Origin: Verrucomicrobiales bacterium
Lineage (GTDB): Bacteria; Verrucomicrobiota; Verrucomicrobiia; Verrucomicrobiales; SLCJ01
Assembly (NCBI GenBank): GCA_046075565.1
Contig: JBJTQJ010000058.1
Coordinates: 1 to 14,722, forward strand
Direction of reading: 5' to 3'
Length of the DNA: 14,722 nt
The translations under genes and the position numbers were made by a program. Of this stretch, positions 165-3,272 are shown in pieces. The notes below the pieces were generated by a model. It did not search any database, was not told the DNA's origin, and saw only the letters and a program-made list of their open reading frames with translations. Numbering within the stretch: position 1 is the first letter of the stretch; each line of letters begins with the position of its first letter.

Positions 165-235
165 CCCCTCCAGTGATGGCAACTAAGGCCATCCTCTGCC
201 CTGAACATTCACCACCCCATCTCCGGTCTAGCTTT

Positions 236-271
236 TTCTGTCTTCTCGTCTTCTGTCTCCTCATTCCTCCT
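236..271 (+). repeat. Degenerate pyrimidine-rich 7-8-bp tandem repeat upstream of the GT2 start
   Basis: Units ttctgtc, ttctcgtc, ttctgtc, tcctcat, tcctcct read directly, ending 6 nt before ATG 278. Confidence 0.5.
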
Positions 272-277
272 TTCATC

Positions 278-982
278 ATGACCCCCGTCCCTATCCCCGA
301 ACGTTGTCTTGGTGTTGTTATGCCCGTTTACAACGAGGAGAAAACACTCCACCTCATCGTTGAGAGAGTATTAGCCCGTCCGGAAGTGGGTGAGCTTGTC
401 ATGGTCGATGACTGCTCGAAGGATGGCACTTGGACCCGGATGCAAGAGATTGCGGCCAGCGACCCCCGCATCCGGATTTTCCACCATGAGGTGAACCAAG
501 GCAAAGGAGCGGCACTACGCACTGGATTCAAGGAGGTCAAAAGCGAGCTTATCGTCATTCAGGATGCGGATCTCGAATACGATCCCGACGAATACCCGCG
601 TCTCCTGATGCCGGTTCTATCCGGTCGTGCGGATGTGGTATTTGGTTCCCGATTCCTCGGTTCGGAGGCGCACCGTGTTTTGTATTTCTGGCATGCCATG
701 GGAAACCGTTTTCTCACCACTCTATCAAACATGTTCACCAACCTGAACCTCACCGACATGGAGACTTGTTACAAGCTCTTCAAGGCGGACGTTCTGCGCA
801 AGATCACTGTCGAAGAGAACCGGTTCGGCTTCGAACCCGAAATCACCGCCAAGGTTGCCAAACTGCGTGTTCCCATTTACGAAATCGCCATTTCTTATCA
901 TGGTCGCACCTATGAAGAAGGCAAAAAGATTGGATGGCGCGACGGCTTCCGCGCCCTCTGGTGCATCGTGAAGTATTCGTGA
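278..982 (+). CDS. GT2 glycosyltransferase, DPM1/polyprenol-phosphate sugar synthase-like
   Basis: Motifs [39 protein letters not shown] (DxD), [35 protein letters not shown] 278 preferred to TTG 161 because the extension is low-complexity intergenic sequence. Confidence 0.93.
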
Positions 983-1023
983 GTCAGGATGTCAAAGGTC
1001 AAAGGTCTGGCCGTCAAGAGACC
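983..1023 (+). repeat. GTC-anchored 7-8-bp degenerate tandem array (left arm flanking four-helix-bundle gene)
   Basis: gtcaggat gtcaaag gtcaaag gtctggcc gtcaagag acc; GTC at 983, 991, 998, 1005, 1013. Starts immediately after the GT2 stop. Confidence 0.65.
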
Positions 1024-1041
1024 GGCACATGAGTTGCCACT

Positions 1042-1416
1042 ATGAAAGTTGAACGTTTTGAAGATCTGCGAATTTGGCAGGAGGCCCGTGTCCAAGTCCG
1101 GTCCATCTACAAGTCCTTCGATGCGGATTCGCCCGCCGGTCGCGATTTCACTTTTCTGGATCAGATTCGTCGTGCTGCGACCTCGGTGATGAACAATATT
1201 GCTGAGGGCTTTGAGCGAAATTCGGATAACCAGTTTTCCCACTTCCTGACCATTGCCAAGGGTTCAAATGGCGAAGTTCGAAGCATGCTCTATGTGGCGG
1301 AAGACCTTGGCTATTGCGCCCCGGCCTTCGCAAACGAAGCCAGGGAATTCTCCGAGAATCTCAGCAAGGGCATCGCTTCATTTATCCAGTATCTCCGCTC
1401 ATGTTCCGGTAAGTAG
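1042..1416 (+). CDS. Four helix bundle protein (23S rRNA intervening-sequence protein / Avd-like family)
   Basis: 124 aa with the hallmark FEDLRIWQEAR...DQIRRAATSVMNNIAEGFER...FL.IAKGS.GEVRSMLYVAEDLGY pattern. Confidence 0.93.
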   Translation: MKVERFEDLRIWQEARVQVRSIYKSFDADSPAGRDFTFLDQIRRAATSVMNNIAEGFERNSDNQFSHFLTIAKGSNGEVRSMLYVAEDLGYCAPAFANEAREFSENLSKGIASFIQYLRSCSGK

Positions 1417-1425
1417 GTCTTGGGC

Positions 1426-1473
1426 TTCCCGACCTTCCGACTTTCCGACTTTCCGACTTTCTGACTTTCTGAC
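1426..1473 (+). repeat. 8-bp tandem repeat array (consensus TTTCYGAC, 6 units; right arm flanking four-helix-bundle gene)
   Basis: ttcccgac cttccgac tttccgac tttccgac tttctgac tttctgac; GAC at 1431, 1439, 1447, 1455, 1463, 1471 (exact period 8). Ends 3 nt before ATG 1477. Confidence 0.92.
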
Positions 1474-1476
1474 CGA

Positions 1477-2190
1477 ATGTCCTCCCCCAACGCCAACGCC
1501 ACCACCGCTGATTTCGAATTCGCCGCACTCTGGGAAGCTGCCAATTATCGTGCGGCCATCGTGCATGAATTCCAGCAGCATCTGCGCGGCCATCTCCTTG
1601 AAGTCGGGTGCGGCATCGGGCAGATGACCCGCGAGTTCCAGCTTCTTTCAGCCATCGACCGAATCACCTGCATCGAGCCGGACCAAGGATTTGCCGCCAA
1701 GCATGCGAAAGATATCCAAGGAGCGGAACTCCTCATCGGCACCGCTGGGGATCTGCCTCCAACCGTGGAAGCGGACTCCATCGTCAGTATCAATGTTCTG
1801 GAACACATCGAACAGGATCAGGAGGAAATGACACGTTATGCCCGACTCTTGAAAAGCCGCCGCGGCCATCTCTGTGCACTGGTGCCGGCTCGGCCGGAAA
1901 TCTACGCTCCTCTCGACAAGGACTTCGGCCATTTCAGGCGTTACACAGCCCCGGAACTCCGTGAGAAGTTGGAGAAAGCGGGCTTCAAAGTCGAGAAGCT
2001 GCACTACTTCAATTTGGTCGGTTATTTTGCCTGGTGGTTTTCTTTTTGCCTGAGGAAACAGCGATCGTTCGGGATCCAACAGGTCCGATTCTACGATCGC
2101 ATCATCTTTCCTGTGATAAACGCCATTGAGACGAATGCCTTTAGGCCGCCCATCGGCCAAAGCCTCATCGCCATTGCCAGGGCGAAGTGA
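1477..2190 (+). CDS. Class I SAM-dependent methyltransferase
   Basis: Motif I LLEVGCGIG, DSIVSINVLEHIEQD, LVPA...LDKDFGHFRRY; a type commonly linked to DPM-like GT2 genes. Confidence 0.9.
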   Translation: MSSPNANATTADFEFAALWEAANYRAAIVHEFQQHLRGHLLEVGCGIGQMTREFQLLSAIDRITCIEPDQGFAAKHAKDIQGAELLIGTAGDLPPTVEADSIVSINVLEHIEQDQEEMTRYARLLKSRRGHLCALVPARPEIYAPLDKDFGHFRRYTAPELREKLEKAGFKVEKLHYFNLVGYFAWWFSFCLRKQRSFGIQQVRFYDRIIFPVINAIETNAFRPPIGQSLIAIARAK

Positions 2191-2199
2191 ATTTTCATC

Positions 2200-2724
2200 A
2201 TGGCTTCCCTAGCGCAAACTCTCTCCGCTACGACTCCGGTTTCGGCTCTTCTGCGAAAGGCCAGGAAATTCGGACTGGGCGACCTTACCGCGGTTGTGAC
2301 CATGGCAGTCCAGAGAGGGTGTAGGCACTATCGGGCCTTTGCCAGTCAACCCGTCTGCGATCCGGGTGAGGAAATGATCTCTAATGAAGAATTAGTGGTC
2401 CTTCTGCTCGTCGGCGAACACCCCTTCAATCCTGTCGCCATCCGCTGCGCCGCGCAAATGGCCAAGTCGCCGGGCGTGAGCCCCTTGAAGCTCGCACGGT
2501 TGGCAAAAATGGAGAAAACGGAGCGAGTTCTCGCGCATATCGCAAGAGCAGGATTGCGGCACGACCTTTCCGCAGTCTCATTCTGGGGCAGAATCCTCGA
2601 AATGCTTCCCGACCAACCGGAAAGATTGGAGCGAAATTTGCCCCATTGGACAAGATTTGTTTCCATGCCCGGCTACCAGAAATACGGCCCCCAGCCAGCG
2701 GTCTGGCTGAATCCAAACCCATGA
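2200..2724 (+). CDS. Hypothetical protein (174 aa), candidate antitoxin/partner of the downstream nucleotidyltransferase
   Basis: ATG 9 nt after the previous stop; ATGA overlap with the next gene. Apparently helical soluble sequence (RGCRHY, SNEELVVLLL, IRCAAQM, LPHWTRF) with no family I can name. Confidence 0.75.
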   Translation: MASLAQTLSATTPVSALLRKARKFGLGDLTAVVTMAVQRGCRHYRAFASQPVCDPGEEMISNEELVVLLLVGEHPFNPVAIRCAAQMAKSPGVSPLKLARLAKMEKTERVLAHIARAGLRHDLSAVSFWGRILEMLPDQPERLERNLPHWTRFVSMPGYQKYGPQPAVWLNPNP

Positions 2725-3272
2725 ACAACCCCGAAGTCATCTTAAGCACCCTTGATGGCTTTCTCTCATCGCCACGCCATCTGGTGCTTTACGGGCGGGC
2801 GGCTTTGGCACTCGGCTATGACGAGCCGGAACCTGCGTTTCAGACCACAATGGATGTCGATGCGATCATTCCGCTCGCGGAATTGGCTTTTCTGGAGGCC
2901 GACGAACTCCTCTGGGATGCGCTTGATAAAACAAACTCTCGTCTGGAATCTTCGGGACTCTATATCACACATCTCTTCGACGAATCTCAAGTCATTCTCC
3001 GTCCGGATTGGATGAATTTTCTGGTAAAGTTGAATGTGCCGCATCTCAAGCACCTCAGCCTGAGCCGCCCTGCATCCGAAGACCTCGTTCTGACGAAAAT
3101 GATGAGGATCGATCCTCATGATCGCTCGGATATTCTATTTCTTCTCAAGCAAACGCCAATTTCTGCGGCAGAATTCGAGAGTGTTTGCAATGCTGCTCGC
3201 ATTCCTGATATCGAAGAAATCCACGTGGCGTTCGAGGACTCCAGAAAATGGATCAGAGAAAAGTTGAAATGA
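2721..3272 (+). CDS. Putative nucleotidyltransferase (Pol-beta superfamily; DUF6036/AbiEii-like)
   Basis: ATG 2721 overlaps TGA 2722-2724; 183 aa. LVLYGRAALALGY...TTMDVDAII matches hG[G/x]xA...TxDxD; C-terminal DLVLTKMMR...HDRSDILFL matches K..R...D..D. Confidence 0.75.
   Translation: MNNPEVILSTLDGFLSSPRHLVLYGRAALALGYDEPEPAFQTTMDVDAIIPLAELAFLEADELLWDALDKTNSRLESSGLYITHLFDESQVILRPDWMNFLVKLNVPHLKHLSLSRPASEDLVLTKMMRIDPHDRSDILFLLKQTPISAAEFESVCNAARIPDIEEIHVAFEDSRKWIREKLK

What the first reader, a model, noticed from the sequence alone, without database searches (positions are those of the whole stretch)
974..1479. Four-helix-bundle (IVS/Avd-like) gene bracketed by inverted tandem-repeat arrays that could join the upstream stop to the downstream start
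Seen: the left array (gtcaggat gtcaaag gtcaaag gtctggcc gtcaagag acc, 983-1023) starts at the first base after the GT2 stop. The right array (six 8-bp GAC units, 1426-1473) ends 3 nt before the methyltransferase ATG. The reverse complement of the right arm (gtcagaaa gtcagaaa gtcggaaa...caagacc) resembles the left arm. Inner ends AGACC (1019-1023) and GGTCT (1416-1420) are complementary, and ATTCG (975-979) can pair with CGAAT (1474-1478), leaving the TGA stop as a 3-nt bulge. Established: this family is encoded in 23S rRNA intervening sequences (stem-bounded, RNase III-excised) and is homologous to the DGR accessory protein Avd, a nucleic-acid-binding oligomer. Inference: this is a self-contained 'mRNA intervening' cassette. 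Its arms could loop out the passenger gene to preserve translational coupling, act as repeated binding sites for the protein, or mediate recombination, gain or loss.
Basis: partly seen in the sequence, partly recalled or inferred. Interest (0 to 1): 0.85.

Follow-up and report, generated by a model that had tools for sequence, protein, structure and literature searches.

The report
Repeat-armed four-helix gene cassette insertion
A small, conserved gene of unknown function, wrapped in two mirror-image runs of 7-8-base repeats, has been inserted between two genes that lie directly against each other in related bacteria; it is one copy of a widespread cassette so far described mainly inside ribosomal RNA genes.

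Summary
An intact PF05635/TIGR02436 gene (1042-1416) lies between inverted GTC/GAC arrays (983-1023, 1426-1473). The arms pair modestly above shuffles (z -2.4 to -4.0) and need G·U pairs; the whole region folds no better than shuffles (z +0.5). It is an insertion: 26 of 26 distinct orthologous GT2-methyltransferase junctions lack it, and 17 of them overlap stop and start. Relatives are framed the same way (60 of 73 above control) at 33 kinds of junction. The repeat unit follows the protein lineage, not the host genome, although synonymous sites are saturated, so the unit is probably under selection, perhaps as the protein's own binding site. The 'join stop to start' idea is weakly supported: left arms start at the upstream stop, but the downstream start lies inside the stem in only 11 of 51 loci, and the arms show no sense-strand G·U bias. 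A paralog replaced 100 codons of hsdM, which points to DNA-level movement. No RNA data were available. The scan noted this layout before on other genomes (288 notes); I found no paper describing it outside rRNA intervening sequences.

The parts
278..982 (+). Host gene upstream: GT2 glycosyltransferase (PF00535). It ends 1 residue after the terminal KY, against 3-6 in empty orthologs, so the insertion may have clipped its last codons (inference)
974..979 (+). Last GT2 bases that extend the stem outwards by pairing with 1474-1479
   Evidence: p 0.84-0.94
983..1023 (+). Left arm: five purine-rich 7-8-nt units starting with GTC, beginning at the first base after the GT2 stop
1021..1033 (+). Inner helix partner of 1398-1410 (13 nt, 92% complementary)
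1042..1416 (+). Four-helix-bundle gene (PF05635 23S_rRNA_IVP, TIGR02436), 124 aa, intact, all invariant family residues present (Q41, S48, N52, E55, S75, E78); no promoter-like site found inside the cassette
1426..1473 (+). Right arm: six pyrimidine-rich 8-nt units ending in GAC; one contig from the same study carries 16 more bases (two more units)
1474..1479 (+). Outer stem segment holding the methyltransferase ATG (1477-1479)
1477..2190 (+). Host gene downstream: class I SAM methyltransferase
229..277 (+). Solo pyrimidine-rich array (TTCTGTC x3.1, 236-258) just before the GT2 start; same unit as the right arm of the paralogous cassette on contig C118; possibly a remnant

Best explanation
983-1473 is a promoterless 'arm-gene-arm' cassette that entered a formerly overlapping GT2/methyltransferase junction at the DNA level (shown: empty orthologs; GT2 tail shortened). 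It is transcribed by the host operon (inferred from near-universal co-orientation and no promoter-like site). The protein is kept under strong purifying selection (shown). Each protein lineage keeps its own repeat unit across phyla and sites (shown), so the units most likely are recognition sites for the protein, probably acting as a pentamer like Xcc0516 (inferred). Slippage changes unit number (one example seen), and DNA-level copying between the arms keeps them mirror-symmetric with no strand preference (inferred). Movement is rare and probably uses host recombination or template switching at short homologies, since no matching transposase or reverse transcriptase was found (inferred). Gene-less hairpins in the same genome are derivatives. 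On the transcript the arms can form a long bulged stem; this may be cut by RNase III as in the 23S intervening sequence and may, at this locus, tie methyltransferase initiation to GT2 termination. I take these RNA effects as what makes the insert tolerable, not as its defining function.
For: Empty sites: 26 of 26 distinct GT2-MTase junctions, from 36 loci with MTase at 40% identity or more (29 with a close GT2 end, 3 of them duplicates; 7 without), hold no four-helix gene; 17 overlap and 9 have 2-23 nt gaps. Arms in relatives: own-partner score 40.9 against 23.8 for other partners; 56 of 73 beat all 100 shuffles; 60 of 73 exceed the control 95th percentile; 96 of 123 in the wider set. 33 junction types among 56 loci. 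Both neighbours co-oriented in 56 of 66, against 111 of 300 control ORFs. Unit tracks protein: Spearman 0.38, Mantel p 0.001; 0 of 62 same-genome pairs cross-complement; the trend persists after removing same-site pairs (21.0, 24.5, 30.0, 31.9 for 40-80% identity). Synonymous sites between the window gene and its 15 closest relatives are near saturation (pS 0.68-0.90, pN 0.26-0.33); dN/dS is 0.04-0.19 in the 29 of 89 pairs that are not saturated or identical. No strand bias: G·U 273 vs A·C 256; fraction 0.45-0.49 under three other scorings; sense strand better in 46, worse in 47 of 94. A paralogous cassette of 423 nt replaces exactly 100 codons of hsdM, with 3-bp inverted host ends. Right arm has two more units in one contig. 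A gene-less hairpin with window-type units lies on C101.
Against: No binding or mobility was shown. The protein is acidic (pI 5.85; family median 7.9), which is odd for a nucleic-acid binder. No near-identical empty/filled pair was found, so ends and target rules rest on one hsdM case and on distant orthologs. Many cassettes are stably inherited at one site (12 of the loci precede cysN), so mobility is slow. Kin are not independent, so the p values overstate. The G·U test had no adequate same-method positive control (23S hairpins 8 vs 4, p 0.15; tRNA acceptor stems 23 vs 1 by another method), and repeat registers may blur it. An earlier whole-flank comparison leaned slightly to the sense strand (43 of 73 vs 129 of 300 in mismatched pairs). 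Left arms are purine-rich in 78 of 94 loci, a strand polarity that a purely double-stranded-DNA model does not explain.
Confidence: 0.5

Rival explanations
1. mRNA-borne intervening sequence: the arms are selected as an RNA stem that RNase III cuts, releasing the passenger ORF and splitting the operon transcript without religation, as for the 23S rRNA IVS. The protein chaperones or guards this processing.
For: The Coxiella IVS has the same parts: S23p ORF, terminal 28-bp stem, GACAGAT heptamers, and an RNase III cut at the first repeat (PMC4990558, passages). The C118 paralog uses GACAGAA-type units. RNase III is present. 58 of 94 cognate duplexes have an unbroken helix of 11 bp or more. Co-orientation with operons. 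One relative lies between two tRNA genes.
Against: No G·U or sense-strand advantage. An RNA stem alone does not explain why the unit sequence is kept per protein lineage. The window's own stem is bulged and weak on Watson-Crick pairs. No RNA evidence was obtained.
Confidence: 0.25
2. The arms are selected to loop the passenger gene out so that the upstream stop lies beside the downstream start. Ribosomes ending GT2 melt the base of the stem and free, or re-initiate at, the methyltransferase ATG, preserving the original translational coupling.
For: Here the ATG is paired (p 0.84-0.94) opposite the last GT2 codons with TGA bulged. Empty orthologs overlap stop and start in 17 of 26. The stem's outer end lies a median 2 nt from the upstream stop, and both ends are within 20 nt in 31 of 51 loci.
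Against: The downstream start lies a median 15 nt outside the stem and is inside it in only 11 of 51. The right arm is nearer the host start than the passenger stop in only 21 of 51 (starts called crudely, no shuffled control). Any compact insert in an overlapping junction abuts both genes. The same cassettes sit between tRNAs and inside hsdM, where coupling is irrelevant.
Confidence: 0.12
3. An ordinary host-useful small gene that is shuffled between operons by generic recombination; the arrays are by-products of slippage and template switching with no specific role.
For: Strong purifying selection and long residence at some sites. Many 7-8-mer arrays occur in this genome without any gene. 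An unrelated family (GxxExxY) also has inverted arms in 3 of 5 copies, judged by eye.
Against: Units differ between paralogs in one genome and are shared between homologs in different phyla. Neutral flanks would not survive synonymous saturation.
Confidence: 0.1
4. An intron-like element: the cassette is removed precisely from the mRNA and the flanks are religated.
For: Removing 983-1473 would leave stop and start 3 nt apart. The hsdM cassette is a multiple of 3 long. PF05635 ORFs occur in insertion sequences of CPR 16S and 23S rRNA genes (10.1101/2024.02.27.582315, passages).
Against: No ribozyme family matched. The Coxiella IVS leaves fragmented rRNA. The hsdM case lost 100 codons, so splicing would not restore it.
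Confidence: 0.03

Closest known systems
ORF-bearing intervening sequence of 23S rRNA (Coxiella burnetii helix 45, S23p; PMC4990558)
   Same: Same protein family in the loop of a terminal inverted repeat that contains tandem heptamers with variable copy number; similar size (428-444 nt vs about 490 nt); patchy presence.
   Different: Here it lies between protein-coding genes of an mRNA. This genome's 23S genes carry no such insert. The ORF is under purifying selection, whereas S23p was reported as decaying and probably not expressed. RNase III cleavage is untested here.
RAYT/REPIN systems (PMC3337134)
   Same: A short gene flanked by its own family of inverted repeats; gene-less inverted pairs spread through the genome; gene and repeat lineages co-vary; long persistence.
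   Different: The protein is a four-helix bundle with no HUH/Y transposase domain. The arms are tandem arrays of 7-8-mers, not REP palindromes. None of the 11 Y1 transposase hits in the genome carries these arms.
Avd of diversity-generating retroelements; Xcc0516 (2GSC); BT_0352 (2RLD)
   Same: Same four-helix fold (Z 18.5 to 2GSC, 15.9 to 2RLD, 14.0/13.8 to Avd); 30% identity to Xcc0516.
   Different: Only 11-12% identity to Avd, not reached by the sequence profile; acidic rather than basic; no reverse transcriptase found in the genome.
Inverted GGGAATC heptamer repeats of Xanthomonas (PMC4692102)
   Same: [quoted passage not shown]
   Different: In the passages and one section I read, they are treated as possible G-quadruplexes, are not linked to a four-helix gene, and were generally not found with mobile elements.

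Membership tests
PF05635 / TIGR02436 four-helix-bundle protein | Score above curated cut-off | tested here: met
   104.7 vs 33.8 bits; 97.3 vs 24 bits
PF05635 / TIGR02436 four-helix-bundle protein | Four-helix fold like Xcc0516 | tested here: met
   pLDDT 97, four helices; Z 18.5, rmsd 1.2 A, 112 aligned to 2GSC
PF05635 / TIGR02436 four-helix-bundle protein | Homopentamer | not testable with these tools
23S rRNA intervening sequence (IVS) | Located within an rRNA gene | tested here: not met
   Flanked by GT2 and MTase genes; no rRNA match in 1-2300; own 23S genes are 2823 nt
23S rRNA intervening sequence (IVS) | Bounded by a terminal stem | tested here: met
   Predicted stem, outer 24 pairs at p about 0.84-0.97, bulged and G·U-dependent
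23S rRNA intervening sequence (IVS) | Excised by RNase III without religation | not testable with these tools
   No RNA holder listed; RNase III gene present
RAYT/REPIN | HUH-Y transposase flanked by the repeats | tested here: not met
   Only PF05635 hits the ORF; Y1 transposase flanks lack these arms
RAYT/REPIN | Gene-less inverted repeat pairs in the same genome | tested here: met
   C101:14011-14120 has window-type units; other unit types on C2, C3, C4, C28, C94
Diversity-generating retroelement | Reverse transcriptase with TR/VR pair | tested here: not met
   No PF00078 match in the genome (100% complete by markers); neighbours are GT2 and MTase; TR/VR not searched separately
IS element / MITE | Target-site duplication and cognate transposase | tested here: inconclusive
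   No close empty allele of the window site; the hsdM paralog shows replacement of 300 nt without duplication

The most novel reading that the evidence does not exclude
PF05635 proteins are sequence-specific binders, and possibly the movers, of their own tandem-repeat arms. Arm-gene-arm cassettes would then be a class of self-propagating element with no transposase or reverse transcriptase of its own, of which rRNA intervening sequences are a special case and many unexplained bacterial heptamer/octamer arrays are gene-less derivatives.
Probability: 0.25. Interest if true: 0.85.

Novelty: new variant of a known kind. Interest (0 to 1): 0.6.

Why it matters
PF05635 is a large family with solved structures and no known function, and 7-8-nt tandem repeats are a long-noted unexplained excess in bacterial genomes (PMC4692102, passages). 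Tying each protein lineage to its own repeat unit gives a direct, cheap binding test with built-in non-cognate controls, and would explain where ORF-bearing rRNA intervening sequences come from. This locus adds a clean empty-site series with stop/start overlap. The same genome adds a case in which a cassette replaced part of a coding sequence.

Tried and rejected
Whole-region fold vs shuffles: no signal (z +0.51). Watson-Crick-only score of the window's arms: not above control. Outer-end distances were discarded because the lenient alignment ran far into coding DNA; only its orientation counts are used, and one search replaced the distances. Sequencing runs: no RNA holder listed; four DNA runs of one study, contigs only. 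No joint skipping the cassette was listed in them, which shows nothing about absence. Protein tree: quick method, window protein not placed with support, so no donor is claimed. Same-method positive control for G·U bias on six 23S genes: underpowered. Rfam on 1-2300: one chance hit. Promoter/terminator scan: nothing above chance. Rfam on 20 of the four-helix loci: no rRNA match. hsdM relatives: none of 29 fetched loci had a four-helix gene. Mobilising enzyme: no reverse transcriptase; no Y1 transposase with these arms; other transposase families not searched. Literature: searches returned nothing; searches returned no paper describing inverted arrays around four-helix genes outside rRNA. Most subscription papers are not in the library. 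The 2026 noncoding-map preprint (10.64898/2026.10.21.760802) has no hit for 'helix bundle', 'intervening', PF05635 or Avd in its main text; its supplements and web clusters could not be seen and may hold these arms. No supplements of any paper were read. No complex prediction was run.

Full report
Observation. The GT2 gene (PF00535) ends at 982. The left array fills 983-1023. A 124-aa ORF at 1042-1416 scores far above the cut-offs of PF05635 and TIGR02436. Six 8-mers ending in GAC fill 1426-1473, and the methyltransferase ATG is at 1477. The pairing is real but modest. The region 960-1490 folds no better than shuffles (z +0.51; 72 of 100). The arms alone reach z -2.4 (20 of 1000), and with inner and outer extensions z -4.0 (0 of 1000; bounds picked after the fact). 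In a partition function over 900-1560 the outer stem (974-979 with 1474-1479, 983-1000 with 1455-1473) has pair probabilities of 0.84-0.97, with the TGA unpaired and the ATG paired. On Watson-Crick pairs only, the window scores 24, under the control 95th percentile of 26.

It is an insertion. I fetched methyltransferase relatives from 61 and 401 genomes and from metagenome contigs. Of 36 loci at 40% identity or more, 29 have a close GT2 end directly upstream (26 distinct) and 7 do not. None of the 26 holds a four-helix gene; 16 use a 4-base stop/start overlap, one a 1-base overlap, and 9 have gaps of 2-23 nt. GT2 ends 3-6 residues after its terminal KY in all of them, and 1 residue after it here, so the insertion may have clipped a few codons (inference). 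These orthologs are distant (GT2 57-76%, MTase 43-58% identity), so exact ends cannot be read from them. Four DNA runs of one study (contigs only) show strains that carry both arms and one contig with 16 extra bases, two more units, in the right arm.

The layout is the rule for the family. Of the best 80 of 520 confirmed homolog loci, 7 were dropped for short flanks or an incomplete ORF and 1 as a duplicate. With the window, 73 remain. A left flank fits its own right flank with a mean inverted score of 40.9, against 23.8 for other loci's right flanks. 56 of 73 beat all 100 base shuffles and 60 of 73 exceed the 95th percentile of 500 control ORFs. Adding 51 more diverse genes from the order (52 kept from 73 loci and regions, one a duplicate; the profile missed some divergent genes) gives 96 of 123 above that line. 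The homologs sit at 33 kinds of junction among 56 loci. Both neighbours are co-oriented in 56 of 66, against 111 of 300 control ORFs called the same crude way. TIGR02436 occurs in 33 of 41 genomes searched, with up to 8 copies. This genome has four full copies and one weak partial hit; by eye, all four full copies have inverted arrays, each with a different unit.

The unit follows the protein. Cross-complementarity between loci rises with protein identity (Spearman 0.38; Mantel p 0.001 on 999 permutations), and none of 62 same-genome pairs exceeds a score of 30. The trend stays after same-site pairs are removed, though the top bin of 5 pairs dips to 28.6. Window-type units occur in both arms of 32 of 73 homologs above 45% identity and in 1 of 49 below, and the best cross-partners include Bacteroidota and Kiritimatiellota records at other sites. 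Synonymous sites between the window gene and its closest relatives are near saturation, and dN/dS is 0.04-0.19 in the 29 measurable pairs of 89. Neutral flanks would have lost their likeness, so the unit itself is probably under selection; the simplest agent is the encoded protein (inference). Kin are not independent, so the p values overstate.

DNA or RNA. If the arms were selected as an RNA stem, G·U should outnumber A·C (established for structural RNA; tRNA acceptor stems of this genome give 23 vs 1). They do not: 273 vs 256, fractions of 0.45-0.49 equal to mismatched controls, and the sense strand is better in 46 and worse in 47 of 94 arm cores. My same-method positive control on 23S rRNA was underpowered, and one whole-flank comparison leaned slightly to the sense strand, so this is suggestive only. 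The left arm is purine-rich in 78 of 94. On contig C73 a 423-nt cassette replaces exactly 100 codons of hsdM, between DPACGSGG and AWVQHF, with host GGC and GCC extending the inverted repeat and no duplication; five intact orthologs define the missing part. This single case favours replacement at short homologies over classical transposition; an assembly error is not excluded. The genome has RNase III, no detectable reverse transcriptase, and no Y1 transposase with these arms among 11 hits. Gene-less inverted arrays are common, one with window-type units.

The stop-to-start idea. Among 55 co-oriented loci folded, 51 have a stem of 15 or more pairs. Its outer end lies a median 2 nt from the upstream stop and 15 nt from the downstream ATG. 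Both are within 10 nt in 17 and within 20 nt in 31, and the ATG is inside the stem in 11 (first-ATG calls, no shuffled control). The window is at the tight end. Coupling by stem melting is plausible here, but it is not a conserved feature, and abutting follows from inserting into an overlap.

The protein. The model (pLDDT 97) matches Xcc0516 (Z 18.5), BT_0352 (15.9) and Avd (14.0, 13.8; 11-12% identity), with an unrelated bundle at 13.1. N52, E55 and E78 are invariant in 123 sequences, the pI is 5.85 and the family median is 7.9. Avd binds DNA and RNA without detectable specificity and averages pI 9.5 (PMC5758913, passages); RNA lies over the narrow end of its barrel (10.1101/2023.10.23.563531, passages). 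So Avd shows that the fold can handle RNA, not that this protein does so in the same way.

Comparison. It has the parts of the Coxiella 23S IVS, including heptamers next to the RNase III site (PMC4990558, passages), but it is not in an rRNA gene, so it is not an IVS by definition. It is organised like RAYT/REPIN (PMC3337134, passages) but lacks the transposase. PF05635 genes were noted between cas genes (PMC3936711, passages) and in CPR rRNA insertions (10.1101/2024.02.27.582315, passages); flanking arrays were not mentioned in what I read. Heptamer pairs were described in Xanthomonas without this link (PMC4692102, passages and section 13). PMC5524665 only lists such genes in a table (passages). 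Ten literature searches found no description of the cassette outside rRNA. Earlier notes of this scan report the same layout on other genomes (288 findings); they are unchecked AI notes and are not counted as evidence.

Verdict. Real, not an artefact, and not unique to this locus: a new variant of the ORF-bearing intervening sequence that lives mostly in operon junctions. That it is an inserted cassette is about 0.9 likely. The mechanism (protein recognises its own arms; DNA-level movement by host functions) is about 0.5. Interest 0.6.

Noticed in passing
G000:C73, L003:666-2588: Type I restriction-modification hsdM whose central 100 codons, including the NPPF motif, are replaced by a 423-nt four-helix cassette. 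The hsdM frame stays open through the cassette while the four-helix ORF runs in another frame. The gene also carries what look like several in-frame palindromic inserts.
   Followed up: partly
window 229-277: Solo pyrimidine-rich TTCTGTC array just before the GT2 start, same unit as the C118 cassette's right arm, with no partner arm seen.
   Followed up: no
G000:C118 (L001): Four-helix cassette with GACAGAA-type units between genes that look like metK and ahcY (names recalled from their sequence, not from a scan); similar junction flanks recur in several genomes of the order.
   Followed up: partly
L167, L168, L169 (G000 C124, C82): GxxExxY (TIGR04256) genes with inverted 9-10-mer arms in 3 of 5 copies, judged by eye: the same packaging on an unrelated family.
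   Followed up: partly
L200 (G001:C1:2569500-2583500): Four TIGR02436 hits within about 12 kb on one strand, at least two truncated or with a stop; the three recovered have different arm units.
   Followed up: partly
L101:2383-2969: Four-helix cassette with arms placed between two co-oriented tRNA genes.
   Followed up: no
L037-L069 group (cysD-cysN-like junction; names recalled): One junction is occupied in 12 loci by two protein groups with two different arm vocabularies, each fitting mainly within its own group.
   Followed up: partly
window 2200-3272: Unannotated 174-aa ORF overlapping a DUF6036 nucleotidyltransferase gene, inserted in the polysaccharide operon; resembles an AbiE/MNT-type toxin-antitoxin pair (recalled, not tested).
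   Followed up: no
G000:C4 16172-18994 and 63515-66337; 33111-33243 and 49266-49398: Contig C4 holds mirror-image copies of the 23S gene and of a repeat hairpin, which may be a large inverted duplication or an assembly artefact.
   Followed up: no
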